UHGV virus genome: UHGV-0150885
Length of the DNA: 57,380 nucleotides
Source of the DNA: a virus
Reading direction: 5' to 3' (one strand)
Positions 10,423-51,611 of this stretch are shown in pieces. The notes below the pieces were generated by a model. That model saw only the letters and a program-made list of their open reading frames with translations, did no database searches and was not told where the DNA came from. The translations under genes and the position numbers were made by a program. Every line of letters starts with the position of its first letter. Position 1 is the stretch's first letter.

Positions 10423-11070
10423 ATGAAAACAAAATGGTATGACTTAGCAAAACAACTCATGCGGGCGCAAGGCATGAGCCAGGATTCATTGGCGGATCTC
10501 ATGGGGATCACAAAAGGCGGCTTATCTCACTGGCTGAATGGTCGCCGCGAGCCAAATCTTGAAGATATTGCGCGGATTATGCGGGCGCTTGGTCGTCGGC
10601 AGTTTACGGTCACTCATGACGGGATGGTTATCGATGATTCAGTTTCAAATACGTTGCCGGGAGCGCCGCCGCTCGACGTGGGACGTTATCCGGTTATTGA
10701 CTGGAAAGACGCAGGAAACTACATGGAAGAAGCAAAACGCGCATTACTACCACACGTTAACACGAGCGTGATTTGTTCGGATGATAGTTATTGGCTGGTC
10801 GCAAAAGGTGAGTCAATGAACGCACCGCAGGGATTAAGTATCCCGGCAGGGACGATGATACTTGTCGATCCGCACGCGCCAGCTATTGACGGCAAACTGG
10901 TTATAGCCCAACTGGAGGAAGGGCAAACGCCGACGTTTAAACAGTTAATCATTGATGGAGGTCAAAGGCTTTTACGTTCGCTTAATCCGCTGTACCCACC
11001 AATCCCGCTAAACCCTGAATCAAAAATTATTGGCGTGGTGGTGGATGCAAAGATCGTAAACCTGCCATAA
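10423..11070 (+). CDS. cI: CI-like repressor, HTH-XRE + LexA-like peptidase S24 domain
   Basis: 215 aa; N-term HTH (QDSLADLMGITKGGLSHWLNG); C-term S24 motifs (KGESM ... TFKQL). Confidence 0.85.
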   Translation: MKTKWYDLAKQLMRAQGMSQDSLADLMGITKGGLSHWLNGRREPNLEDIARIMRALGRRQFTVTHDGMVIDDSVSNTLPGAPPLDVGRYPVIDWKDAGNYMEEAKRALLPHVNTSVICSDDSYWLVAKGESMNAPQGLSIPAGTMILVDPHAPAIDGKLVIAQLEEGQTPTFKQLIIDGGQRLLRSLNPLYPPIPLNPESKIIGVVVDAKIVNLP

Positions 11071-11332: not shown

Positions 11333-11623
11333 ATGAATGCGAAAATTACTTACGGTAACTGTGAGAGCAAACTTAACGCCCGCGCCCGCCGACGGATGAA
11401 ACGGGCAGCAGAGCAAGATGAAGGCCCGCACATACAGAAGGTTGATAGAGTGGAAAAAGCTATTCGCTTTGCAAATGAGGAAAAATGCGAACCAAATAGC
11501 GTTAAAGGACGTCGCAAGGGAGCAACAAAATGGTATCAGGAAAATGAAAGCGGCAACTACTTTCACGCAACGCAGCCGCGCCAGCTTGGGGAAAAACCCC
11601 TCGATAAAGTCCGATACCATTAA
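11333..11623 (+). CDS. N-like transcription antitermination protein
   Basis: 96 aa; N-terminal arginine-rich motif NARARRRMKRAAEQ like lambda/P22 N ARM; first gene after PL and nut. Confidence 0.6.
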   Translation: MNAKITYGNCESKLNARARRRMKRAAEQDEGPHIQKVDRVEKAIRFANEEKCEPNSVKGRRKGATKWYQENESGNYFHATQPRQLGEKPLDKVRYH

Positions 11624-18885: not shown

Positions 18886-18964
18886 TTTACAAAATGGCGT
18901 CATTGTGTGATGAGCGTCACATAATGGCGCTTTTCATCTTGTCCGGGCGTATCCATTTTGTATA
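18886..18964. promoter_or_regulatory. Regulatory region: inverted TTTACAAAATGG / CCATTTTGTATA boxes flanking a perfect CRP-consensus-like palindrome TGTGATGAGCGTCACA
   Basis: Palindrome at 18906-18921; boxes at 18886-18897 and 18953-18964. Confidence 0.4.
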
Positions 18965-20247: not shown

Positions 20248-20426
20248 AAAACGAAATTAAAGATCTGCAAATAGATATTCAGCGTGAGGAACATGATTTA
20301 GAAACAATCCGACAAATCCAGGCTTTTCATATGCGCGAATTGCTTGCGCTAAAAGAGCTTGAGCGAAAGATGGTGCAATCCATTTCTGACCGTAAACACC
20401 TGGCGGCGCGTTACGGGGGTAAATAA
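20244..20426 (+). CDS. Hypothetical coiled-coil protein (60 aa)
   Basis: ORF track; coupled between rusA and Q. Confidence 0.45.
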   Translation: MKNEIKDLQIDIQREEHDLETIRQIQAFHMRELLALKELERKMVQSISDRKHLAARYGGK

Positions 20427-21148
20427 TGAATTTAGAATCCATTCTAAAATTCCACTTTCCTAAATCACCGCGATTGTCAGACGAAAGCCGGGGAACATCC
20501 CCGGATGCGCTTAATACGACGGATGCACTTACCGCCGCTGGTATGGCGCAATCGCGCGTAGAGCTTGGCTATAGCGCTTTTTTAGGGAAGATGGAACTAT
20601 CGCAAGCCGAAAAACACAAGGCCGTAGTATTGCTTACAGAGCGTTTAAGGGCTATGGCAAAAGATTACGAATACGTCATGGAGTTAAACGAGGATCAGCG
20701 CAATGGACTTATTATTCTTGTTGCCGTTTTCGCGTTTAGGGATTATTGCCAAAGCGCCGCTACGGAAAAAACTTGTATGGAGTGCGGCGGATATAAATTT
20801 ACGTTTGACGACTACGGGGAAAAACACCTTTGCAAAAAATGCAAGGGGCATGGGAAAGTTCGCAACCATTGTAAACAATGCAAAGGGCGCGGCGAGATAC
20901 CGGATAAAGCAGCCAGCAACGCGGCGGAAATGCCAGTTTTCAAAACGTGCCAGCACTGCGGCGGGCGTGGGTACTCACGTTTCCCGGTAGATCTTGTTCG
21001 GCAGGCGGTTAATCAGCTTGTTTTTCCGGTAAGCCGATCAACGTGGTGGAAAAAATATCGGGTTTTCTATGAGGACGCCATAGCGGAGCTATTCAAAGAG
21101 GAAGCCCGCGCGGAAAGCGAAATCAAGCGAGTGACACGGGGTGAATAA
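20426..21148 (+). CDS. Q: Late-gene antiterminator Q (phage 82/21 type)
   Basis: 240 aa; N-terminus LESILKFHFPKSPRLSDESRG like Q82 (LESVAKFHSPKSPMMSDSPRA); Cys-rich zinc-finger region. Confidence 0.85.
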   Translation: MNLESILKFHFPKSPRLSDESRGTSPDALNTTDALTAAGMAQSRVELGYSAFLGKMELSQAEKHKAVVLLTERLRAMAKDYEYVMELNEDQRNGLIILVAVFAFRDYCQSAATEKTCMECGGYKFTFDDYGEKHLCKKCKGHGKVRNHCKQCKGRGEIPDKAASNAAEMPVFKTCQHCGGRGYSRFPVDLVRQAVNQLVFPVSRSTWWKKYRVFYEDAIAELFKEEARAESEIKRVTRGE

Positions 21149-25163: not shown

Positions 25164-25206
25164 TTTACAAAATGGCATTGTTCCGGCAGTGCCGTTTTGT
25201 TATATA
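25164..25206 (+). promoter_or_regulatory. Candidate late promoter PR' (TTTACAAAATGG box, -35 TTGTTC, 17 bp, -10 TATATA)
   Basis: Promoter-like hexamers about 175 bp upstream of tR'-like terminator and lysis genes. Confidence 0.45.
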
Positions 25207-37605: not shown

Positions 37606-37629
37606 GGGGCCATCCGGCCCCTTTCTTTT
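37606..37629 (+). terminator. Rho-independent terminator after major tail gene
   Basis: GGGGCC-ATCC-GGCCCC hairpin + TTTCTTTT. Confidence 0.6.
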
Positions 37630-37632
37630 AGG

Positions 37633-38319
37633 GTGATAATTATGATTCATGTTCGTACCGGACAATTTGCGGCGGTGGTGGATAATAAACGCTACGTGTT
37701 TAACCCCTGCTTCGCTGCAATGGCGAAAATTGGCGGCGATCGTGAGCTTGTCCAGTTATTCGCAACCATTCACGGTAGCAAGTATCCCTCCCGCCTGCCT
37801 AACGATCCAGACCTCCGTAATCGCATTCTGGCGCGGTGTTATGGTGAGATAGTGCAATCGTCCATCCATATCCTGAAATGTTGCTCTGACGACGATATAA
37901 CAGACCTGGTGGGCGAATGTCGATTTACTCCTGCGGGCAAGCTACGACAGAAACCCGGATTAATGCCAACCGAAGATATTATCACGCTGGCACAGCATTG
38001 CATGTACCACGGTCTAATCGGTGACGGGCCGGAAGAAGACGCCGGAGAGATCCCGGAAGGGGAATATAAGCCAGCCTTTAACGTGCTGGAATTCGTTTAT
38101 TCTGCCGTTGCTCACCTGGGATTATCTGAATCGGAAGCATGGGCCATGACCATGACCGGATATAGGGCCGCTGTACGCGCTAAAATGCCGCCAGACGCGA
38201 AAAACGAGAAAGCTAAACCAAACGTTCAGATAAATAAACAGGTTTATGACGAGCGAATGGAGGCCGCTAGAAAGGCACTGGAAAGAATGAAAAATCGCAG
38301 GCAGAAAAAAGCCCGGTAG
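37633..38319 (+). CDS. Tail assembly chaperone-like protein (putative)
   Basis: 228 aa; located between major tail and tape measure; Lys-rich C-terminus. Confidence 0.4.
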   Translation: MIIMIHVRTGQFAAVVDNKRYVFNPCFAAMAKIGGDRELVQLFATIHGSKYPSRLPNDPDLRNRILARCYGEIVQSSIHILKCCSDDDITDLVGECRFTPAGKLRQKPGLMPTEDIITLAQHCMYHGLIGDGPEEDAGEIPEGEYKPAFNVLEFVYSAVAHLGLSESEAWAMTMTGYRAAVRAKMPPDAKNEKAKPNVQINKQVYDERMEAARKALERMKNRRQKKAR

Positions 38320-38336
38320 ATCCGGGCGTTTTGTTT
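38305..38336. terminator. Bidirectional Rho-independent terminator between convergent genes
   Basis: A6-GCCCGG-TAGAT-CCGGGC-GTTTTGTTT. Confidence 0.6.
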
Positions 38337-38337
38337 A

Positions 38338-38691
38338 TTAGGCCGCGCCAGCGTTGATTCTGTTATGGATTGCGTGCCCCTTTATTTCTCCATGTCTGAA
38401 CACTTCCGCGACTTCGGGATCTTTATTTTCCGCTTTCAATGCTTCGTATTTTTCGTGTATTTTTCTTGCTTTAACTATTTCCTTGTCAAGAAATGGTATT
38501 AAGGCTTTTTGTTTACACGCCATGTCAAAAATAATTTCTTTATACCCCGTACCGTCACCGTGTCTTATGTCGTACAGGTGCGCGGCGTGAGCGCATTCAT
38601 AAATAGCCTTATCCATTTTATCGTCGGCGTGGGCGTTAAATGCAAAACCAACCAGCGCCACCATCATTACTACTTTCGCTAACCGTTTCAT
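38338..38691 (-). CDS. Secreted/periplasmic moron protein with signal peptide
   Basis: 117 aa; MKRLAKVVMMVALVGFAFNAHA signal peptide; reverse orientation inside tail operon. Confidence 0.55.
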   Translation of the reverse strand: MKRLAKVVMMVALVGFAFNAHADDKMDKAIYECAHAAHLYDIRHGDGTGYKEIIFDMACKQKALIPFLDKEIVKARKIHEKYEALKAENKDPEVAEVFRHGEIKGHAIHNRINAGAA

Positions 38692-38702
38692 AAAACACCC
38701 CG

Positions 38703-38927
38703 TTAAATATCAGCAATTTTTACAATGTTTTTGTCTTTAATGATTCTATTGCCGACTTGAAACCCTTTAACTAATCTCAACCAGGCTTCCTTTTGTGCTG
38801 GGTGATCAATGTGCTCCCATTCCTTGTTATTGTTTCTCCCGGCGTACACTTCGCCGTCGATGATTTTAAATTGTTCGCCTTTGTGGAAGCCACCAATTTT
38901 TTCATAGATACCATCATAACGTTTCAT
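38703..38927 (-). CDS. Moron protein (74 aa), hypothetical
   Basis: Same 5' translation-initiation sequence (GGGGTGTTTTATGAAACG) as downstream gene. Confidence 0.5.
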   Translation of the reverse strand: MKRYDGIYEKIGGFHKGEQFKIIDGEVYAGRNNNKEWEHIDHPAQKEAWLRLVKGFQVGNRIIKDKNIVKIADI

Positions 38928-38979
38928 AAAACACCCCCACTTAATTGTTTTGTTTAACTATCTTTTCCTTTGACTTCCT

Positions 38980-39021
38980 TATACAAAATGGAGTCGGTAA
39001 AGTAAAGCCATTTTGTATAAA
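38980..39021. promoter_or_regulatory. Palindromic divergent promoter unit: TATACAAAATGG -16- CCATTTTGTATA, with TATAAA/TATAAG -10 hexamers in both orientations
   Basis: Perfect 12-bp inverted repeat; each box sits 24 nt upstream of a -10-like hexamer on its strand. Confidence 0.45.
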
Positions 39022-39058
39022 ATAGAGGCACAGATCACATTTTGTATGAGGTTAAATC

Positions 39059-41401
39059 ATGGCTACCAGTTTAGGTACAATTTATTACGAGATCGACGCC
39101 AAAACAGGGCAACTCCTTGTCGTACAGCGACAGGCCGATCAGACATTCGACAGTATCGAGCGCGGCGCAAAACGTGCTGACCGCCAGGTTAATACACTGA
39201 AAACATCAATCAAAGCACTGACCAGGGTTATCCACCTGTTAGTCGCAGCGGAGGCCGTGCGCCAGTTTATTGACATGGCAGAGCAGGCAAAACAGCTACG
39301 CATAAAAATCAAAATGCTGACAGGTGACGCAGAAAGCGCAAACCGGGTTTTTGATGGCCTTAAATCTATCGCTCACCAGACCGGGCAAAGTATTAAAGAT
39401 ACAACCGACCTATGGCAAGGTTTAGCCATCTCATTAAAAAATACATCTGCCACCGAAGGGCAGATCCTTAATCTGGTAGGCACGCTTCAAAAAATGGGGG
39501 CGTTAGGCGGGGCATCAGCCGAACAAATGTCTAACTCCATGCGCCAATTCCGGCAGGCGGTTGACGGCGGCGTACTGCGTGCGGAAGAATTTAACAGTTT
39601 ACTGGAAAACACCCCAACCATCGTACAAACAATGGCAAAACAAATGGGGTTATCAATGGGCCAGTTCCGCGCCGAAATGCTGGAAGGTAAGATCACCGCT
39701 GAAAGAATGGTCAACGCTATCCAGGCGGCAACGAAAGAAACAAACGAGCAATTTGAACAACTCCCGCGCACGTCCGGCGTTGCGTTCAATTCGCTAAAAA
39801 TCGAAGTCATGGGACTGGTTGAAAAACTCGATGATCTATTAGGCGTGTCAGACAGAGTGGTCACTATCCTGGATAATACTGCCACTGGTGGACGATGGCT
39901 GGGCGAAAAAGTGAGTTTTGCAGCTAACTGCTTTAATACATTGAAGCGCGCTGGAGGTGAGTTTATCGACATGTTTGATGATGTTGCGGTTAAGGCTAAG
40001 GAGGTTGCCGACAAGATCATCGAAATGGTGACGCCAATTAAGGCAATGATGGATGCTTATAAGTGGGCGAAGGAATTGGTCGGAAAAAGCAAGGATGAAT
40101 ATAACAGCGATCCGTTCAAGAAATACGGTAAACGCTTAGGTTGGGCGATGTTAGCATGGGAAGACCATCAAGGAATGCTTAAACGCACAGAAGAAGCGCA
40201 GAAGGAAGAACAAGCCTCAAATAATGATGGCAGTATCACCGGATTTGACAAACCAGTTGGCAAGCCGAAAAAACAGAAGAAAGCGAAAAAATCAGACTAT
40301 GACCGCTTAGGCGATCAGGGTATCAGTGTTTCCGACCAGTACAACAAAGACGCCGCCGCCATGCGCAAAGCATTAAAGAGCGGCATGGCCATTGATGCTG
40401 CCTTCGCCCAGGGCAAAATCACGCTCCTTGAATACAAAGGCGCTATGAAGGGCATAAGAGAAGAAAGGGATCGCACGCTGGCTGGACTTGAAGCCGAAGC
40501 CTTGCAAGATAAATGGGATAACATGATTAATCCTATGGATAAACTCAAAGGGCAAGTAGATCCCATTCAGCAGGCGCAAAATGAATGGGCCATCCGTAAG
40601 CAAATGTTGTTAGATCTGAACGCCTCAGAGGCACAAATCCGGGCTGAACAACTCCAGCATGAGCAAACCATCGCCAACCTGAAGTGGGAACAATGGCAGG
40701 CGCAAAGCGATACTAACGCCCTAATAGGCGATTGCGTCAGCGGCTTAAAAGGCGGCATGAGCAACGCTATCACCGGATTATTGAACGGTACGCAATCCCT
40801 CAGTGAGATGTTTGCTAACCTGGGAAGCAATATACTCGGTACGGTGGGTAACAGGCTTGCCGACATTGCCGGGAACTGGATAGCCGATCAAATCATGATG
40901 GAAAGTCAGAGTAAGGCAACGCAAGCCAGCACCACGGCTGGCGCGGTAGCGGCGCAAGGTCAGATTGCAGCGGCAGCGGCCCCGGCGGCAGCGGCGACAG
41001 CGGCGTCAACTGGCGGTAGCTGGGCGGCGGCTGGCGCGGCGGCACTATCCGCGATCATGTCACTGGCGACGTCGATTTTCGGCGGCGGGCGCTACAACGG
41101 CGGCGCGGTTAACGGTGGCAATCTTTACAGGGTTGGTGAGCACGGTATACCAGAACTGTTTACTACCACTGGCGGGAAACAGTACATGATCCCCGGTGAA
41201 GGTGGGCGTGTTACACCAGGCCGCGACCTGGGCGGCAGCGGTGGCATCAACATGCCTGTCAGTATCACAGTTCAAACGACAAACGGTTTTAGTGATGATG
41301 ATAGCCGCAGACTTGAAGACACAATGAAGCGCGTAGCTATGAGTGTAGTCAGAGAACAAAGCACGCGTCCTGGCGGCATATTGCAACCACGCCGCAAATA
41401 A
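39059..41401 (+). CDS. H: Tail tape measure protein
   Basis: 780 aa; long helical protein with Gly/Ala-rich C-terminal segment; position before gpM. Confidence 0.85.
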   Translation: MATSLGTIYYEIDAKTGQLLVVQRQADQTFDSIERGAKRADRQVNTLKTSIKALTRVIHLLVAAEAVRQFIDMAEQAKQLRIKIKMLTGDAESANRVFDGLKSIAHQTGQSIKDTTDLWQGLAISLKNTSATEGQILNLVGTLQKMGALGGASAEQMSNSMRQFRQAVDGGVLRAEEFNSLLENTPTIVQTMAKQMGLSMGQFRAEMLEGKITAERMVNAIQAATKETNEQFEQLPRTSGVAFNSLKIEVMGLVEKLDDLLGVSDRVVTILDNTATGGRWLGEKVSFAANCFNTLKRAGGEFIDMFDDVAVKAKEVADKIIEMVTPIKAMMDAYKWAKELVGKSKDEYNSDPFKKYGKRLGWAMLAWEDHQGMLKRTEEAQKEEQASNNDGSITGFDKPVGKPKKQKKAKKSDYDRLGDQGISVSDQYNKDAAAMRKALKSGMAIDAAFAQGKITLLEYKGAMKGIREERDRTLAGLEAEALQDKWDNMINPMDKLKGQVDPIQQAQNEWAIRKQMLLDLNASEAQIRAEQLQHEQTIANLKWEQWQAQSDTNALIGDCVSGLKGGMSNAITGLLNGTQSLSEMFANLGSNILGTVGNRLADIAGNWIADQIMMESQSKATQASTTAGAVAAQGQIAAAAAPAAAATAASTGGSWAAAGAAALSAIMSLATSIFGGGRYNGGAVNGGNLYRVGEHGIPELFTTTGGKQYMIPGEGGRVTPGRDLGGSGGINMPVSITVQTTNGFSDDDSRRLEDTMKRVAMSVVREQSTRPGGILQPRRK

Positions 41402-41405
41402 ACAA

Positions 41406-41436
41406 AACCCCGGTACAATGCCGGGGTTATCTTTTA
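41406..41436. terminator. Bidirectional terminator after tape measure gene
   Basis: CCCCGG-TACAATG-CCGGGG hairpin + TTATCTTTTATT. Confidence 0.6.
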
Positions 41437-41616
41437 TTCAACTTCGTCGTTTTTAAATTCGTTGTTTACATAAAGCTGTAATGCTTTTATTAGTTCGGCG
41501 GCTTGCTTTTTGTCTATTACGATAAGTTCGCAGTCGCTTTCAAGCCATAATCTTTCGTCATACTCAATGCTAAGAGTGATTCGCCTACATTCTTCCGTTT
41601 CATTAATAATCATCAT
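41434..41616 (-). CDS. Moron protein (60 aa), hypothetical
   Basis: ORF track; last gene of reverse-oriented 3-gene cassette. Confidence 0.45.
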   Translation of the reverse strand: MMIINETEECRRITLSIEYDERLWLESDCELIVIDKKQAAELIKALQLYVNNEFKNDEVE

Positions 41617-41723
41617 TTACCCCTATAATCGACCATTCCGCGCGACATATCCCCTTCCGAAAATCACCTGCCAAATATTCCAGATCTCCCGCCATGTAAA
41701 TTTATCATCTTCCATATCCCACC

Positions 41724-41978
41724 TCACTTATGGCAACCGCGCACGCCGCATAATTCATTGTATTTGTGGTGTTCAACAATTAACCAAACCTTTAAGTCCT
41801 GACTGTAAAGCCGCCAGTCGGGGTTAATATCCATTTTGTAGCCGTATCCATCGCGTAATTTTTTGGGGTAGGCTTCTTTTCTCAGGAAAGCGTTTAATAA
41901 AGCCTTACCTTTTTTGATGATCCGGTCCTGTGCGTTTTTCTGTGCTTTCAGGTTTTTATCAATCGCTACCAGTTTCAT
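41724..41978 (-). CDS. Moron protein (84 aa), basic, hypothetical
   Basis: ORF track. Confidence 0.5.
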   Translation of the reverse strand: MKLVAIDKNLKAQKNAQDRIIKKGKALLNAFLRKEAYPKKLRDGYGYKMDINPDWRLYSQDLKVWLIVEHHKYNELCGVRGCHK

Positions 41979-41997
41979 AGCCCACCCCCATCATCCT

Positions 41998-42165
41998 TAG
42001 TTGACCGCTTTCAGGTAGAAATCCCGATATTCGTTTGCTTTCACGTTCATGTAGAACTGGCCCATTTTGAACGCATCATCGAAGCCTTTAACAATCGCTA
42101 CTTCTACTTGTTCGAATGCGTCGTTAAGCATTACGACTGCGTAGTGTTTATCGTTGCCTTTCATC
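41998..42165 (-). CDS. Moron protein (55 aa), hypothetical
   Basis: MKGNDKHYAVVMLNDAFEQVEVAIVKGFDDAFKMGQFYMNVKANEYRDFYLKAVN; strong SD AAGGAGG. Confidence 0.45.
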
Positions 42166-42205
42166 TTGGGCCTCCTTTGTTGGTACTGCTTTCTTCTTGC
42201 TTTCT

Positions 42206-42247
42206 ATATACATCTTGTTGCGTCCTGTGTGAAGCCATTTTGTAAAC
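42206..42247 (-). promoter_or_regulatory. Candidate promoter for reverse cassette 2 (TTTACAAAATGG box, 24 nt, -10 TATATA)
   Basis: Same box-to--10 spacing as the other promoter-family members. Confidence 0.45.
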
Positions 42248-42332
42248 TGGTTATAATTCTTGTGATGAATATCTCATTTTTCGCGTAGCAACGCGTAAAG
42301 ATGTACACAAAATGTAACTTATAGGGGGAAGT

Positions 42333-46277: not shown

Positions 46278-49200
46278 ATGGGCGGCGGCGGTGGTAAAGC
46301 AAAAACACCAACATTAATAAACGACAATTTATTTCATAAGCAATTTTACCGGGTTCTGGATATATTGAGTGAAGGGCCGATTTACGGTCCGGTCAATACC
46401 GCTGCCCCGTTAAACTGCGTAATGCTTAATGACACACCTGTTACGGATGCCGTGGGTAATACCAGTATCCCAGGCGTTAGCGTCGCCTGGCGTCCGGGTA
46501 CTGCCGACCAGTCACCGATCAACGGCTTCAACGCCATTGAATCTACGGTAATGGTTAACGCGCAGGTGAAATATGACACGCCACTGGTAAGGACGGTATC
46601 AGATCCGAACGTGACGCGCGTCCGGTTGAATATTGGCGTGGATTCACTGGTGGAAAGTGACAGCGAATCAAACCAGCATGAAACATCAGTTTTTATGGCG
46701 ATTGATGTAAAACCATCATCATCATCAATCTGGTCGGCGATTAAGGCCGTGCAAATCGGTCCGGGTAAGATTAGCGGTGAATATCTGGAATCACACATCA
46801 TTGATGCGCCGGACGAAAAACCGTTCGATATTCGCGTTCGCCGCATAACACCTGACAGCACGGGCGATCTATTGCAGAATGATACCCGCTGGAATAGCTA
46901 CAGTGAAATTATCGACGATAACTTGTCTTATCCTCACACCGCTGTAGCGGGCGCGGTGATTGATCATGACCAGTATACCGACACGCCGACACGCACTTAT
47001 CACATGCGTGGCCTGATTGTTGATGTACCGGATAACTACGATCCGGAAACGCGCACTTATTCCGGTTTATGGCTGGGCGGGATGAAACAGGTGTACACCA
47101 ATAACCCAGCGTGGATCTTCCGGTATCTGGTTAAAAACGAGCGTTTTGGCCTTGCCCGCCATGCTGGTTATATTGACGTTGACGACGGCGCATTATACAC
47201 GCTTTCCCAATACTGCGATCAGTTGGTTGACGATGGTTATGGCGGCCTTGAGCCGCGCGTGACGCTTAATGCATACATTACGGAGCAAATGAGCGCCCGC
47301 GACTTACTGGACAACATTGCCGGAATGTTCCGGGGGATTGCGTTATGGGACGGTCAAACACTTACTGTAATGCTCGATGCACCGCAAGATCCGATTGCAA
47401 CCATCACAAACGCAAACGTCGTTGATGGTGCATTCACCCGTTCAAGCATTGCGCGTGCGGAATGTTACAACGCCGTGATTGTATCCTGGACTGATCCGGA
47501 AAACGGCTGGGAGCAATCAAAAGAGTATGTAGCGGATGATGAGCTAATCGCCCGCGATGGTTACAATGAAACCACACTGGAGGCGTTCGGCTGTACATCA
47601 CGCGGGCAAGCGTACCGCGCGGGCAAATGGCTGATAGAAACAGCAAAACGCGAGCCGTCGAAATTCACGTTTAAAATGGCCCGTGACGCGATTCACTTTA
47701 CACCAGGGGATATTATCGAGATTCTCGATAATAACCGTGCTGGCGCGCGTTTAGGCGGTCGTATCGTGGCGAATAACGGGAACGTGATAACGGTTGATAA
47801 GGTTGATAGCGAGTACATTACGGCAGGCGACACCATCAGCTTGCTCGATAGCGATGGTAAATTTAAAAAACACCAGATCACCGGAGTGAATGGAAACGAG
47901 ATCACCTTAGCGGCGGCCCCGGCATGGATTCGGAACGGTACTGTATTTGCTGTATCAACCGAAGCGGCAAAACCCGTTTTATGTCGAATCACTAGCGTAG
48001 CCGAAACCGAAAATAACAGCGTATACACCATTGAGGCCGCGCAGCACGATCCGAACAAGCAAGCGGTTGTCGATGAGGGCGCAATCTTTGAGGTTAACAG
48101 CGACACGCTGAATCACTTCCGTGTACCGAACATCGAAAACCTGAAAGTGATAAACATTGGATCGGAAACAGTTCAATGCCGCGCCACCTGGGAAACTCAA
48201 ACCACTACCCGCGCATTAACCTTTGAGATCCGCATTTATGACACCGACGGGCGCGTGGTGGCGAGCTACGAAACGCAAAATTACCGGTATGACTTTTTCG
48301 GCCTTGAGTGCGGTAATTATTCGCTTGGTATTCGTGGGCGCAATGACACCGGGATGAAGGGAGCGGAAACACTGGTAGATCTTATTGTTGGTGCGCCTGC
48401 CGCGCCGACTGGTGTTAATTGGGTGCCAGGTGTTTTTCAGGCGACTGTTTACCCGATCAGCAACAGCACGCTAACGACTGATACTACTTACGAATTCTAT
48501 TACGCTGGAGAAAACCAGATTACTGACTTCTCACTGGTAACAACATCAGCGCAATTTTCCGGGCGCGGCTATCAGTGGACTTTTGGCGGGATGGCAACGG
48601 GCCACACGTATTACGTTTACGTGCGCACAAAAAACGCTTTCGGCGTATCTGACTTTATCGAAGCCAGTGGTAAGCCGTCCGAAAACTTCGAAGAAATCAC
48701 GGATGCCGTGCTGAATGAAGTTATGGAGGGTGAGCAATTTCAGGACATGATTAAAGAAACCATCGACGAGGTAACAGGCGGCTTGATGGGCGATGTGGAA
48801 GAACTGAAACAAACCACGGTAGATATTGACCAGGCTGTTACCGATCTGAAAGAATCGACCGCAGACCTGGAAGAACGCGTGAAAAACAATGAGGATGGAA
48901 TTGGAGAACATGAAAGCCAGATCAACGAAATCAGCGTCGAGTTAACTGAACAGGAAAATGAACTAATCCAGACACGCGCCAGCCTGCAAAACGCAGCTAT
49001 TGCGCTTATGAATAACTCACTGGCTAACACCAGCACGCGCACCACGTTGACGGCACAGTATAAAAACCAGAAAGCAGAAACGAAGGCGGAGATTGAGCGC
49101 ATCGACACTGTGATCGCTACAGAGAAAGAAGCGACCGCGCAGGCGCTTACGACACTCGAAAGCAAGGTCAATGACGAAATCAGCGCCAACGTAACCGAAC

Positions 49201-50255
49201 TGCAACAAACCATTGCAACGCTTGAAAGTTCGACAAGCCAGTCGATCGAAAAATTAGAAAGCCAGGTCAACGAAGATATTCAGGCAAGCATAACGGAGAT
49301 TAACCAGACGATCACCGATCTGGAATCATCCACATCTGAATCTATTAGCAACCTTGAGGCTAAAGTAGATGGTGATATATCGTCAGCAATAAGCAACATG
49401 GAGCAAGCACTCGCTACCCACGAAAAAGCCAACGCTACGCAGTTTAATAGCCTGCAAAGTCAGATTGATGAGAATGAGGCTGCAATCACTGAAACTAATC
49501 AGACGATCGCAACCAATGAACAAGCAACCGCGCAGAAGCTGGAGCAACTACAGGCGCAAATAGACGACGATGTGGCGGCAGCTATTACCGAAATGCAATC
49601 CGCGCTTGCCACCCATGAACAAGCTAATGCTACTCAGTTTGCGGAAATTAGCGCATCGCTGGAAGCAAACGAGGCGTCGATCACGGAGTGGAGCGAAGCG
49701 TTTACAACCTATAAGGAATCGACCGCCACGCAGATTGAAAGTATTACGGCGTCAATCGAGGGGCAATCGGTATCAATTGAGGAAAATAAAACCGCCATCG
49801 CTGGCCTTGAAACCGACATGTCGGCAACGTGGAGCGTTAAGATCGCCGCAGACAACAACGGCATGAAATATTTTTCCGGGATCTCGCTTGGCTTGACTGG
49901 CAGCGGTACGAGTACGCAATCGCAATGTATTTTCCTTGCTGACCGCTTTGTATTAATGACAGCGGCAAACGGCACATATACAACGCCTTTCTATGTCACA
50001 AATGGTGCAATGTATGTGCGCGAAGCGTTTATTAAAGACGCCTCAATCACTAACGCGAAAATTGGATCTTACATCCAGTCAAATAACTATGTTTCCGGTA
50101 GTACTGGCTGGAAGCTGGATAAATCCGGTACATTCGAAAACTACGGATCAGTAAGCGGTGAAGGAGCGATGAAATGGACGAACACAACAATCTCTGTCAG
50201 AGATGGAAATAGCGTGTTACGCGTCCAGATTGGGCGAATTACCGGATCATGGTAA
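46278..50255 (+). CDS. J: Host specificity protein J (central tail fibre) with coiled-coil repeat insertion
   Basis: 1325 aa; long colinear blocks with lambda J (FGCTSRGQAYRAGKWLIETAK, RVRRITPDSTGDLLQNDTRWNSYSEIID). Confidence 0.95.
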   Translation: MGGGGGKAKTPTLINDNLFHKQFYRVLDILSEGPIYGPVNTAAPLNCVMLNDTPVTDAVGNTSIPGVSVAWRPGTADQSPINGFNAIESTVMVNAQVKYDTPLVRTVSDPNVTRVRLNIGVDSLVESDSESNQHETSVFMAIDVKPSSSSIWSAIKAVQIGPGKISGEYLESHIIDAPDEKPFDIRVRRITPDSTGDLLQNDTRWNSYSEIIDDNLSYPHTAVAGAVIDHDQYTDTPTRTYHMRGLIVDVPDNYDPETRTYSGLWLGGMKQVYTNNPAWIFRYLVKNERFGLARHAGYIDVDDGALYTLSQYCDQLVDDGYGGLEPRVTLNAYITEQMSARDLLDNIAGMFRGIALWDGQTLTVMLDAPQDPIATITNANVVDGAFTRSSIARAECYNAVIVSWTDPENGWEQSKEYVADDELIARDGYNETTLEAFGCTSRGQAYRAGKWLIETAKREPSKFTFKMARDAIHFTPGDIIEILDNNRAGARLGGRIVANNGNVITVDKVDSEYITAGDTISLLDSDGKFKKHQITGVNGNEITLAAAPAWIRNGTVFAVSTEAAKPVLCRITSVAETENNSVYTIEAAQHDPNKQAVVDEGAIFEVNSDTLNHFRVPNIENLKVINIGSETVQCRATWETQTTTRALTFEIRIYDTDGRVVASYETQNYRYDFFGLECGNYSLGIRGRNDTGMKGAETLVDLIVGAPAAPTGVNWVPGVFQATVYPISNSTLTTDTTYEFYYAGENQITDFSLVTTSAQFSGRGYQWTFGGMATGHTYYVYVRTKNAFGVSDFIEASGKPSENFEEITDAVLNEVMEGEQFQDMIKETIDEVTGGLMGDVEELKQTTVDIDQAVTDLKESTADLEERVKNNEDGIGEHESQINEISVELTEQENELIQTRASLQNAAIALMNNSLANTSTRTTLTAQYKNQKAETKAEIERIDTVIATEKEATAQALTTLESKVNDEISANVTELQQTIATLESSTSQSIEKLESQVNEDIQASITEINQTITDLESSTSESISNLEAKVDGDISSAISNMEQALATHEKANATQFNSLQSQIDENEAAITETNQTIATNEQATAQKLEQLQAQIDDDVAAAITEMQSALATHEQANATQFAEISASLEANEASITEWSEAFTTYKESTATQIESITASIEGQSVSIEENKTAIAGLETDMSATWSVKIAADNNGMKYFSGISLGLTGSGTSTQSQCIFLADRFVLMTAANGTYTTPFYVTNGAMYVREAFIKDASITNAKIGSYIQSNNYVSGSTGWKLDKSGTFENYGSVSGEGAMKWTNTTISVRDGNSVLRVQIGRITGSW

Positions 50256-50617: not shown

Positions 50618-51216
50618 TGGCTACTTTTGGCGCTTATTTACGCCTGGATAATGGCAATATTTTTGTGACGCCGGATTCTACCCCGATGTGTTTATATTCG
50701 CGGGTGGCCTTAAATTCCAGCCAGCAACAAACGATCGCTGTACCCGACGGCAAGCCTGTAATGGTATTCATCAAAAACACCGACGACACCGCCACGGGGC
50801 TTGCTTATCGCGCATCATCATCTACGGTAGTGATCCCGCCTGGTAACGGGTATGCGTATATATTCAGCATCTTCCCGCCATCGCTGCCGAGATGGGGGAT
50901 GGCTATCTGGAACGCTTCCGGGGAATTGGTACTGACCAATGAATCAAAAATATTAACCGACCTTGTTACAGTAGGCACGGCGGGATCGAGCGGGGGGATT
51001 TATATCGATCAAACATTATCAGGATCTTATGCGGTAGTGCCTCAGATATTAGGGGCCGTTGTAGGTATGGGTTCTGCAACAATATATACAGAGGCATACT
51101 ACAACGGCAGCACTACACGAATTCGCGGAAAACAGGTTGGTAGCTTGCAGCAGGCTTACAGCTACATTAACCACGGGAACGCTATCACCGCCATTAAAAC
51201 CGACGCCTATGATTAA
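50617..51216 (+). CDS. Hypothetical tail-region protein (199 aa), MATFG family
   Basis: ORF track; N-terminus MATFGAYLRLDNGN. Confidence 0.5.
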   Translation: MATFGAYLRLDNGNIFVTPDSTPMCLYSRVALNSSQQQTIAVPDGKPVMVFIKNTDDTATGLAYRASSSTVVIPPGNGYAYIFSIFPPSLPRWGMAIWNASGELVLTNESKILTDLVTVGTAGSSGGIYIDQTLSGSYAVVPQILGAVVGMGSATIYTEAYYNGSTTRIRGKQVGSLQQAYSYINHGNAITAIKTDAYD

Positions 51217-51452
51217 TTCAGTTCCGGGCAATCCGTTTTCTTGAAGTGGTCAACGCTCACCCATTGGAAATTGAACGGATACCCGGCCTTAACCATTTTG
51301 TGACCGCCAACATCTGCAACGCCAAAGACTGCAACCGCATATTCATTACCGCCAGTTTGATAGATTGCTGTACATTCACGTTTTGGCATATCAGCACAAC
51401 CAACCAGACCAGCAACCATTGCAGCGATAGCGATATTTTTTAAACCTTTCAT
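51213..51452 (-). CDS. Small lipoprotein, Cor-like candidate
   Basis: MKGLKNIAIAAMVAGLVGC lipobox; GGAGGG SD; reverse-oriented between J and tail-fibre genes. Confidence 0.6.
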   Translation of the reverse strand: MKGLKNIAIAAMVAGLVGCADMPKRECTAIYQTGGNEYAVAVFGVADVGGHKMVKAGYPFNFQWVSVDHFKKTDCPELN

Positions 51453-51611
51453 TGTCTTACCCTCCGTTGTTTCGTTGGTTGTAGTATCCATAAACCGCAT
51501 TTTTACAACATTGATGTAAATCAACAAACACATTTTGTATAAACCAGAAATGTAACATAGATCACAAAATGGTAGAATTATTCCGTTAATTAACATAATG
51601 GAGTCATTGCA

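What the first reader, a model, noticed from the sequence alone, without database searches (positions are those of the whole stretch)
38338..38927. Reverse-oriented two-gene moron with duplicated translation-initiation region, encoding a secreted protein
Two - strand genes between the chaperone-like gene and the tape measure gene start with the same 18-nt initiation sequence GGGGTGTTTTATGAAACG and both begin MKR. One (117 aa) has a cleavable signal peptide MKRLAKVVMMVALVGFAFNAHA and would be periplasmic. The cassette is flanked by a bidirectional terminator and by the palindromic promoter unit at 38980-39021.
Basis: seen in the sequence. Interest (0 to 1): 0.55.

Follow-up and report, generated by a model that had tools for sequence, protein, structure and literature searches.

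The report
Swappable reverse moron in tail operon
Two small genes lie backwards between the tail-chaperone-like gene and the tape-measure gene of a temperate E. coli phage, and one of them encodes a secreted protein; this is an ordinary "moron" cargo slot, and its one unusual feature is that related phages swap different cell-envelope proteins into it using the same start-site and signal-peptide sequence.

Summary
Two minus-strand ORFs, 74 aa (38703-38927) and 117 aa (38338-38691), each start with the exact 18-mer GGGGTGTTTTATGAAACG. A bidirectional terminator (38311-38327) and a 13-nt inverted repeat (38979-38991 / 39008-39020) flank them.

The window is a complete contig of an mEpimmI-group temperate coliphage. 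It carries an integrase, an S24 repressor, an N-like gene with nut sites, and Q.

In 55 related loci (42 distinct) the same slot between the DUF6246 gene and the tape-measure gene always holds reverse-strand cargo. The cargo differs between loci, but every slot encodes at least one envelope-targeted protein. The slot boundaries are conserved. This is the position of HK97 gene 15, the first moron described.

The 18-nt repeat is a shared cassette junction, not a decaying duplication:
- The two proteins are unrelated.
- The 74-aa gene is under purifying selection.
- The start site and signal peptide of the 117-aa gene match unrelated VasI-like lipoprotein genes better than they match its own family.

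The 117-aa protein is modelled as a four-helix bundle behind a signal peptide. It belongs to a tiny family found only in this slot. Its function is unknown; superinfection exclusion is the best guess.

The promoter is a paralogue of the phage's early promoter and carries a dispersed 12-mer, so expression from the prophage is unproven.

The parts
38338..38691 (-). Second cassette gene, 117 aa. Residues 1-22 form a Sec-type signal peptide (codons 38626-38691). The 95-aa mature protein (38341-38625) has two invariant cysteines, C33 and C59.
   Evidence: ORF. Identical protein found on 9 contigs, including one longer than 1 Mb. Family of 13 clusters at 90% identity and 5 representatives at 50% identity. 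AF2 model is a four-helix bundle with pLDDT 84.7. Invariant cysteines.
38703..38927 (-). First cassette gene, 74 aa. Basic (pI 9.3), with no signal peptide and no transmembrane segment.
   Evidence: ORF. Homologues at 88% and 78% identity; the L006 one is the first gene of the same slot and L010 is a short contig with no DUF6246 hit. dN/dS 0.04 against L006. AF2 pLDDT 64.6, small beta-plus-helix fold.
38684..38701 (-). Copy 2 of the 18-nt initiation sequence GGGGTGTTTTATGAAACG: SD GGGGTG, a 4-nt spacer, ATG and 5 further nt. It lies 1 nt after the TAA stop of the 74-aa gene.
38920..38937 (-). Copy 1 of the 18-nt initiation sequence, at the start of the 74-aa gene.
38978..39006 (-). Putative sigma70 promoter of the cassette. 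-35 TTTACT (39006-39001), 17-nt spacer, -10 TATAAG (38983-38978), followed by the conserved leader AGTCAAAGG (38975-38967).
   Evidence: Read from the sequence. Aligns without gaps to the promoter module upstream of nutR1 and the N-like gene. The consensus scan missed it because position 6 of the -10 is G.
38979..39020 (.). Inverted repeat TTATACAAAATGG-N16-CCATTTTGTATAA. Each arm carries the dispersed 12-mer TWTACAAAATGG. The arms are invariant in nearly all relatives, whereas the loop varies.
39033..39048 (-). Third, partial copy of the motif (CATACAAAATGT) fused to the invariant TGTGATC, which contains a GATC site. It lies just upstream of the tape-measure SD.
38311..38327 (.). Bidirectional intrinsic terminator shared by the DUF6246 gene (plus strand) and the cassette (minus strand). 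It forms the conserved right boundary of the slot.
37633..38319 (+). Flanking gene: DUF6246 protein at the tail-assembly-chaperone position.
39059..41401 (+). Flanking gene: tape measure protein, 780 aa.

Best explanation
This is a moron-type accessory cassette in a dedicated, recombination-prone cargo slot of an mEpimmI-group temperate coliphage.

Layout. The slot lies between the DUF6246 (chaperone-position) gene and the tape-measure gene, and it is transcribed against the Q-dependent late operon. A sigma70-like promoter inside the conserved palindromic unit (-35 39006-39001, -10 38983-38978) would drive a short bicistronic mRNA. That mRNA encodes a 74-aa cytoplasmic protein and a 117-aa pre-protein, and it ends at the bidirectional terminator.

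The 117-aa product. It would be exported by Sec, cleaved after AHA22, and released into the periplasm as a 95-aa four-helix bundle, probably with one disulfide (C33-C59).

The 18-nt repeat. It is the slot's cassette junction: the stop codon of the upstream gene, SD GGGGTG, a short spacer, then ATGAAA. Cassettes are joined and exchanged at this junction, and further into the signal-peptide coding region, by recombination between related phages. The window's arrangement is what a crossover within AACGGGGTG would give between two parents. One parent is L006-like (leader, 74-aa gene, TAACGGGGTG). The other is L005-like (CGGGGTGTTTTATGAAACGG followed by a signal peptide).

Shown and inferred. The anatomy, slot variability, mosaic breakpoints, purifying selection and fold model are shown. 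Promoter activity, export, the disulfide and the recombination history are inferred.

Function. The most likely function is an envelope-level effect on incoming phages, that is superinfection exclusion or blocking of DNA entry. I put this at about 0.35. It rests on three points: every version of the slot encodes an envelope protein; HK97 gp15 occupies the same position; and a reverse cassette elsewhere in the group's tail region, preceded by the same motif arrangement in mEp021 (Lpp021), excludes phages experimentally.
For: Phage identity. Integrase, S24 repressor, Q, lysozyme and Rz are present. The closest phages are MagusPhagus and mEp554/013/515/021.

Slot variability. 55 slots were examined, 42 of them distinct. 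All hold reverse cargo, and all encode at least one signal-peptide, lipoprotein or transmembrane product. The left boundary (cargo coordinates 1-106) and the right boundary (731-780) are conserved at 80-94% identity, while the interior is unrelated.

Composition. GC dips to 0.38-0.41 in the slot.

Terminator..

Promoter. The module aligns in register with the promoter that precedes boxA/boxB (nutR1) and the N-like ORF (nut positions confirmed in PMC11893012).

Junction motif. TAA-N-GGGGTG-N4-5-ATGAAA recurs in front of unrelated cargo genes. 67 of 83 cargo genes start with ATGAAA.

Mosaic 5' end. The first 45 nt of the 117-aa gene match VasI-like lipoprotein genes at 41/45 and 36/45. They match genes of its own family at only 28-32/45 (a 57-nt hit at 94.7% to a 'TagO' gene; PF11319).

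Both are real genes. dN/dS is 0.04 for the 74-aa gene. The 117-aa family has invariant residues, and every member located is in this slot.

Fold..

Analogues. HK97 gene 15 lies between the chaperone and tape-measure genes and excludes phages from the prophage (PMC3594210). Lpp021 excludes mEp021 and mEp515 (PMC11893012), and its gene is preceded by the same TGTGATCT...TTATACAAAATG arrangement and a GGGGTG SD.
Against: - No expression or localisation data exist.
- The promoter is imperfect: -35 matches 4 of 6, and the -10 TATAAG lacks the conserved T at position 6.
- The promoter shares the 12-mer TWTACAAAATGG with the early promoters, which must be silent in a lysogen. It may therefore be repressed there too.
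- No relative with an empty slot was found, so 'insertion' is inferred from variability and not from presence versus absence.
- Signal-peptide cleavage was judged by rule, not by a trained predictor.
Confidence: 0.7

Rival explanations
1. The cassette is an early-lytic accessory unit controlled by a phage regulator, and is not a prophage-expressed moron. Its promoter is a paralogue of the early promoters, and the 12-mer or inverted repeat is an operator for the S24 repressor or a Cro-like protein. The genes would then be silent in the lysogen and switched on with the early genes after infection or induction.
For: - TWTACAAAATGG occurs 8 times against 0.04 expected.
- It sits at the promoter in front of nutR1 and next to nutR2. 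A variant pair lies at the leftward promoter in front of nutL.
- Apart from -35/-10-like hexamers, it is the only element I found shared between the nut-linked early-promoter regions and the reverse-cassette regions of the tail operon.
- In slot 1 one arm lies just upstream of the -35 and the other overlaps the -10, which is a classic occlusion geometry.
- The arms are more conserved than the -35 across 37 distinct upstream sequences.
Against: - The 12-mer is not palindromic and occurs singly and at variable spacing, which is atypical for a CI-type dimer.
- It also resembles a proximal UP-element subsite at -46 to -38 (my reading).
- The same arrangement precedes the Lpp exclusion gene, and exclusion genes are usually useful in the lysogen.
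- Operators have not been mapped for this phage group; PMC11893012 does not define them.
Confidence: 0.25
2. The 18-nt identity reflects independent selection for a strong initiation region (G-rich SD, AAA second codon) and not shared ancestry or recombination at cassette junctions.
For: Many cargo genes in the slot use GGTG-type SDs and start with ATGAAA. The Lpp gene in a different slot also uses GGGGTG-N5-ATGAAA.
Against: - Elsewhere the spacer and the third codon vary freely (TTTT, GGTT, AGTT, AAAT, AAAC), so function does not demand 18/18 identity.
- The L006 homologue of the 74-aa gene differs at one of the 18 positions.
- Similarity in the second copy continues for about 40 nt into the signal-peptide coding sequence shared with unrelated lipoprotein genes. 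That indicates homology and not convergence.
Confidence: 0.12
3. A recent local tandem duplication of one gene's 5' end, with one copy decaying.
For: The only support is the exact 18-nt direct repeat 236 nt apart.
Against: - The proteins are unrelated (BLASTP E 0.14).
- Identity ends sharply outside the 18 nt.
- The 74-aa gene is conserved in other phages, paired with different second genes, and has dN/dS 0.04.
- The 117-aa gene has 13 homologous clusters.
Confidence: 0.02
4. The 117-aa protein is a periplasmic inhibitor or immunity protein against lysozyme, colicins or T6SS effectors, and not a phage-exclusion factor.
For: It is small, periplasmic and disulfide-bearing. Alternative cargo in the same slot is VasI/TagO-like, a T6SS-associated family.
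Against: - Pfam returned no hit of any kind, so there is none to the Ivy or MliC/PliC families.
- The model is a four-helix bundle. From general knowledge, MliC/PliC are beta-barrels and Ivy is alpha/beta.
- Only the 5' module is shared with the VasI-like genes; the mature domain is not.
- The family is confined to this phage slot.
Confidence: 0.06

Closest known systems
HK97 gene 15 moron (Juhala/Hendrix; Cumby et al. 2012; reviewed in PMC3594210)
   Same: It occupies the same position in a siphovirus tail operon, between the tail assembly chaperone gene and the tape-measure gene. It is an accessory element with its own promoter and terminator and a GC content unlike its neighbours. Its product is envelope-located. 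gp15 is expressed from the prophage and blocks DNA entry.
   Different: There is no sequence similarity. From my recollection of Cumby et al. 2012, gp15 is a single inner-membrane protein with a YebO-like N-terminus. Here there are two genes, one cytoplasmic and one secreted. The orientation here is opposite to the late operon. No function has been tested.
Noncontiguous-operon immune genes in prophages, e.g. phi80 taiEcA (PMC11364771)
   Same: A gene in divergent orientation interrupts the Q-driven late operon. In phi80 the reverse gene is expressed in the lysogen and falls when Q drives late transcription. The anatomy here (a Q gene, and reverse cassettes inside the tail operon) allows the same logic.
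   Different: Tai acts in the cytoplasm on tail assembly and has a paired counter-defence gene. No homology to Tai or Ati was looked for beyond the Pfam and PADLOC scans. No transcript data exist for this phage.
Lpp exclusion lipoproteins of mEpimmI phages (Lpp021, Lpp010; PMC11893012)
   Same: Same phage group. These are reverse-oriented small envelope-protein genes inside the tail region. In mEp021 the gene is preceded by the same TGTGATCT...TTATACAAAATG arrangement and a GGGGTG SD. Plasmid expression excludes phages.
   Different: They sit in a different slot (after J). They are lipoproteins and not soluble periplasmic proteins, and they are unrelated in sequence.
ES18 genes 18-20, 'possible morons' downstream of DUF6246 gp17 (record NC_006949)
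   Same: Accessory genes lie between a DUF6246 gene and the rest of the tail genes in a distant relative.
   Different: They are in forward orientation, have different genes, and lack the shared promoter module.

Membership tests
Moron (Hendrix definition) | Extra DNA between two genes that are adjacent in related phages | tested here: inconclusive
   Slot content differs among 42 distinct relatives while the boundaries are conserved. No relative with an empty slot was found among the 55 loci.
Moron (Hendrix definition) | Own terminator | tested here: met
   Bidirectional intrinsic terminator at 38311-38327. It is conserved as the right boundary of the slot.
Moron (Hendrix definition) | Own promoter | tested here: inconclusive
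   TTTACT-N17-TATAAG on the minus strand aligns in register with the phage's nutR1-linked promoter. It matches only 9 of 12 positions, the -10 ends in G, and no activity data exist.
Moron (Hendrix definition) | Base composition unlike the neighbouring genes | tested here: met
   GC 0.38-0.41 against 0.47-0.51, with inverted skews.
Moron (Hendrix definition) | Expressed from the repressed prophage | not testable with these tools
   Needs lysogen transcript data. The 12-mer shared with early promoters makes this uncertain.
Sec type-I signal peptide (secreted, not a lipoprotein) | Positively charged n-region, hydrophobic h-region, small residues at -3/-1, no lipobox cysteine | tested here: met
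   MKRLAK / VVMMVALVGFAF / NAHA, with cleavage before DD. Maximum Kyte-Doolittle 11-residue mean is 2.76, and there is no Cys before residue 33. Homologues keep N-A-N/H-A. Assessed by manual rule only.
VasI/TagO family (PF11319 / TIGR03360) | Match to the family profile over the mature domain | tested here: not met
   The 117-aa protein has no Pfam or NCBIfam hit. Only the RBS and signal-peptide DNA is shared with VasI-like cargo genes.
Known superinfection-exclusion or defence protein families | Sequence or fold homology to a characterised member | tested here: not met
Periplasmic lysozyme inhibitors (Ivy, MliC/PliC) | Family profile match and characteristic fold | tested here: not met
   No Pfam hit of any kind. 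The predicted fold is all-helical.

The most novel reading that the evidence does not exclude
The reverse cassettes in the tail operon form a phage-controlled regulon of interchangeable envelope proteins. There are three such slots in this window. Two parts make up this reading.

1. Common regulation. A dispersed asymmetric 12-mer, TWTACAAAATGG, occurs 8 times against 0.04 expected, or 11 times counting variants. It lies at the nut-linked early promoters (a variant pair at the leftward one), upstream of the reverse cassettes in the tail operon, and at three further sites (upstream of the helicase-position gene, at 18886 and at 25164). It would be the binding site of a phage regulator that couples the cassettes to the lysis-lysogeny circuit.

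2. Cargo exchange. Cargo would be swapped through a conserved 5' adaptor (promoter, leader, SD, and the n/h-region of the signal peptide) and a 3' adaptor (the bidirectional terminator). Any mature domain recombined in would automatically be expressed and exported.
Probability: 0.3. Interest if true: 0.6.

Novelty: new member of a known kind. Interest (0 to 1): 0.35.

Why it matters
The finding adds two uncharacterised protein families to the classic chaperone-to-tape-measure moron position. One is a 74-aa cytoplasmic protein. The other is a 117-aa periplasmic four-helix bundle found only in this slot.

In the mEpimmI coliphages, which are reported to be common in the human gut, this position is a dedicated slot for envelope proteins. 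Its cargo is exchanged at conserved junctions that extend into the signal peptide.

If the 117-aa protein blocks phage entry, it would be a new soluble periplasmic exclusion factor, and the neighbouring tape-measure protein would be an obvious candidate target.

The dispersed 12-mer is a concrete and testable lead to the unmapped operators and promoters of this phage group.

Tried and rejected
Searches that found nothing informative:
- Family scans of both proteins (Pfam, PHROGs, NCBIfam, PADLOC) gave nothing significant.
- Profile searches against PDB sequences gave nothing for the 117-aa family. For the 74-aa protein they gave only non-significant Fyn SH3 matches, E 0.26.
- An exhaustive HMMER profile search of 1.84 billion representatives found five family clusters, including the two seeds, plus two weak and probably spurious long proteins.
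- hhalign between the 117-aa family and the 137/138-aa secreted family of the same slot gave probability 0.4%, so they are unrelated despite their similar signal peptides.
- The genome-contig scan with the DUF6246 protein returned no confirmed locus.
- E. coli complete genomes hold the promoter unit and the signal-peptide module but not this cargo.

Ideas rejected:
- Tandem duplication with decay.
- CRP, LexA, TyrR, CpxR, OmpR, IHF and DnaA sites as explanations of the 12-mer. These were compared only from remembered consensus sequences, none fits, and the check is not rigorous.
- An RNA-hairpin role for the palindrome. The arms are invariant, so covariation cannot be tested. The only arm variant (A to G in L012, L029, L031 and L057) is uninformative.

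Full report
**Source of the window.** The window is the whole 57,380-bp contig Ga0495776_146573 from JGI metagenome 3300045988. It is a temperate siphovirus. It carries a tyrosine integrase (1340-2533), an HTH-S24 repressor (10423-11070), an ERF recombinase, a Q antiterminator (20426-21148), a lysozyme and an Rz protein. It also has an arginine-rich N-like ORF (11333-11623) preceded by boxA/boxB. Its nearest sequenced relatives are Escherichia phages MagusPhagus and mEp554/013/515/044/010/021. These belong to the 'mEpimmI' group of Nus-dependent non-lambdoid coliphages described in PMC11893012. A protein identical to the 117-aa product is found on nine contigs, one of them longer than 1 Mb, so the phage also exists as a prophage.

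**Checking the observation.**
- Both minus-strand ORFs are at the stated coordinates.
- The 18-mer GGGGTGTTTTATGAAACG occurs exactly twice, at 38684-38701 and 38920-38937, 236 nt apart. No further copy appears even with 3 mismatches. Shuffles expect 0.06 matches.
- Identity stops sharply at both ends of the 18 nt, and the two proteins are unrelated.
- The bidirectional terminator is at 38311-38327.
- The inverted repeat has 13-nt arms, is 100% complementary, has a 16-nt gap, and spans 38979-39020.
- The N-terminus of the 117-aa protein fits a type-I signal peptide by the classical rules. The AF2 model is poorly ordered over roughly residues 1-20 and confident after that.

**The slot in relatives.** I used the DUF6246 protein to fetch 49 IMG/VR loci and added phage and assembly loci. 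I then located the end of the DUF6246 gene and the start of the tape-measure gene in 55 sequences and extracted what lies between them. There are 42 distinct versions.
- All 42 carry genes on the strand opposite to the tail genes.
- By a crude classifier, all 42 encode at least one protein with a signal peptide, a lipobox or a transmembrane segment.
- The cargo families are:
  - a 29-aa first-gene peptide
  - the 74-aa protein
  - the 117-aa family (116-131 aa)
  - an unrelated 137/138-aa secreted family (hhalign probability 0.4%)
  - 203- and 219-aa VasI/TagO-like lipoproteins (PF11319)
  - a 124-aa lipoprotein with weak, sub-threshold similarity to BamE/OsmE
  - 245/247-aa lipoproteins
  - a 35-aa plus 100-aa membrane pair
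  - several others
- BLASTN of the window's slot against all others shows a conserved left boundary and a conserved right boundary. The left boundary covers the tape-measure start and the palindromic unit (cargo coordinates 1-106, 80-93% identity). The right boundary covers the terminator and the DUF6246 end. The interior is unrelated.
- GC falls to 0.38-0.41 inside the slot against 0.47-0.51 outside.

This matches the description of a moron. [quoted passage not shown] In the distant DUF6246 phage ES18, the genes after gp17 are annotated 'possible moron'.

**The duplicated initiation region.** Across the slot, unrelated genes are preceded by the same kind of junction: the TAA stop of the previous gene, one or two nt, a G-rich SD (GGGGTG, GAGGTG or GTGGTG), 4-5 nt, then ATGAAA. 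67 of 83 cargo genes begin with ATGAAA.
- L006 carries the 74-aa homologue with GGGGTGTTTTATGAATCG in front, which is 17 of 18 matches. It has TAACGGGGTG|AAACATG behind, followed by a 247-aa lipoprotein gene.
- L005 and L055 carry CGGGGTGTTTTATGAAACGG in front of a VasI-like lipoprotein.
- A crossover within AACGGGGTG between two such parents gives exactly the window's arrangement.
- The similarity continues into the coding sequence. The first 45 nt of the 117-aa gene match the VasI-like genes at 41/45 and 36/45, but match genes of its own protein family at only 28-32/45. This also explains the 57-nt, 94.7% hit to a 'TagO' gene in E. coli RM9245.
- The SD, start codon and n/h-region of the signal peptide therefore behave as a shared, exchangeable 5' module.
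- The alternative of a decaying local duplication is excluded. The 74-aa gene has dN/dS 0.04 against L006 with saturated synonymous sites. The 117-aa family has invariant residues across 13 clusters.

**The two proteins.**
- *117-aa family.* It is very small: 13 clusters at 90% identity in 5.8 billion proteins, and five clusters at 50% identity in an exhaustive profile search of 1.84 billion. Every member whose context I examined is in this same slot. AF2 gives a four-helix bundle with pLDDT 84.7 overall and above 90 over most of the mature part. C33, C59, G49, P66, G101, E102 and G105 are invariant. Structure and sequence searches give no informative relative.
- *74-aa protein.* It is basic and has no export signal. 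Only two other clusters are known. It is modelled with low confidence as a small beta-rich domain plus a helix. A local resemblance of residues 3-24 to the SH3 'ALYDY...FHKGE.F.I' region is not significant, E 0.26.
- No function can be assigned by homology to either protein.

**The promoter unit.** On the minus strand the unit reads TATACAAAATGG-C-TTTACT-N17-TATAAG-GA-AGTCAAAGG. This aligns without gaps to three other places in the window.
- *11.2 kb, plus strand.* TATACAAAATGG-A-TTGACT-N17-TATATT-GCG-AGTCAAAGG, followed by TGCTCTTTAACAA (boxA), a boxB-like hairpin and the N-like gene. This is the promoter in front of nutR1, whose position PMC11893012 confirms.
- *25.2 kb, plus strand.*
- *42.2 kb, minus strand.* TTCACA-N17-TATATA, in front of a second reverse cassette (55 aa, ParE-like 84 aa, 60 aa) between the tape-measure gene and the minor-tail gene.

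A related arrangement precedes a third reverse gene, a 79-aa lipoprotein at 51213-51452. In mEp021 it also precedes gp81 = Lpp021, which excludes mEp021 and mEp515 when expressed from a plasmid (PMC11893012).

The 12-mer TWTACAAAATGG occurs 8 times in the window against 0.04 expected. It occurs at matching positions in mEp021. A variant pair lies at the leftward promoter in front of nutL. In the 37 distinct upstream sequences the two arms are almost invariant, while the loop and the -35 vary.

Three conclusions follow:
1. The palindromic unit does contain a promoter for the cassette.
2. That promoter is a paralogue of the phage's early promoters.
3. The arms are under selection beyond what a promoter needs, most simply as a protein-binding site.

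I cannot tell whether the site is an operator or an activator/UP-type site. An operator would silence the cassette in lysogens. No operators have been mapped for this phage group.

**Likely mechanism.**
- *Shown:* the anatomy, variability and mosaicism of the slot; both genes being real; a confident helical model behind an N-terminal signal-like segment.
- *Inferred:* transcription from about 38971 to the terminator, Sec export, cleavage after A22, and a periplasmic disulfide-bonded bundle.
- *Reverse orientation.* The cassette lies inside a Q-dependent operon that must read through the 38311-38327 terminator. This matches the 'noncontiguous operon' layout shown for phi80 taiEcA, where the reverse gene is on in the lysogen and falls when Q drives late transcription (PMC11364771). 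I propose the same logic here as an inference.
- *Function.* Three facts favour an effect on incoming phages at the envelope: the exclusively envelope-directed cargo, the position shared with HK97 gp15, and the regulatory arrangement shared with Lpp021. I hold this at about one in three.

**Novelty and score.** The kind of element is well known, and so is the position. New here are two orphan protein families, the evidence that the slot is reserved for envelope proteins and exchanges cargo at junctions reaching into the signal peptide, and the dispersed 12-mer. I rate it a new member of a known kind, with interest 0.35.

Noticed in passing
window 6464, 11181, 18886, 18953(-), 25164, 38980, 39008(-), 42235(-); variants 10338, 10377(-), 39037(-), 42304, 51530(-): The asymmetric 12-mer TWTACAAAATGG occurs 8 times against 0.04 expected. 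It lies at the nutR1-linked promoter and next to nutR2, with a variant pair at the nutL-linked promoter. It also lies upstream of the gene at the replicative-helicase position and upstream of all three reverse cassettes in the tail operon. Positions are conserved in mEp021. It could be an unmapped operator, an activator site or an UP-like element.
   Followed up: partly
window 41434-42332: A second reverse-oriented cassette lies between the tape-measure gene and the minor-tail gene. It has three minus-strand genes (55 aa, 84 aa ParE-like, 60 aa) behind a promoter module homologous to the one at 38980-39020. It shows the same GC dip.
   Followed up: partly
window 51213-51611: A third reverse gene encodes a 79-aa lipoprotein (MKGLKNIAIAAMVAGLVGC...) between two tail-fibre-region genes. 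It is preceded by TGTGATCT...TTTATACAAAATG. It occupies a position comparable to that of the mEp021 Lpp021 exclusion lipoprotein gene, in the tail-fibre region downstream of J.
   Followed up: partly
window 38977-39053, plus strand: On the late-operon RNA, the left arm (CCUUAUACAAAAUG) can pair with the third motif copy (CAUUUUGUAUGAGG). This would sequester the tape-measure SD (MFE -25.5 kcal/mol, z -2.7). Pairing with the middle copy would leave the SD free. The third copy is not conserved in the more distant relatives.
   Followed up: partly
relatives L002, L004, L014, L025, L032 and others, first gene of the slot: A conserved 28/29-aa ORF (MKNVNYHPNEHERYADFIEEMLKALKNKN) is the first gene of the slot in many relatives. 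It is preceded by a CCGGATTAACCGG hairpin. In the window and L006 the 74-aa gene occupies the first position; in L010 both are present, with the 29-aa ORF preceding the 74-aa homologue. It may be a leader peptide or a small regulator.
   Followed up: no
L005, L055, L014, L018, L019 and others (the same slot in relatives): Phage-borne VasI/TagO-family lipoproteins (PF11319, E 1e-15 to 8e-17), a family annotated as T6SS-associated, are common cargo of this slot.
   Followed up: partly
window 37606-37621: An intrinsic terminator (GGGGCCATCCGGCCCC followed by a T-run) lies between the major tail gene and the DUF6246 gene, inside the late operon. It is conserved in the mEp phages, where it is annotated T12-T15 or TERM_8.
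   Followed up: no
window 46278-50255 and 51612-55589: Two plus-strand ORFs of exactly 1325 aa each lie in the tail-fibre region. Their relationship was not examined.
   Followed up: no
window 38703-38927 (74-aa protein, residues 3-24): The segment has a local resemblance to the SH3 'ALYDY...FHKGE.F.I' motif (Fyn SH3, E 0.26). It is not significant and is only a lead to an SH3-like fold.
   Followed up: partly
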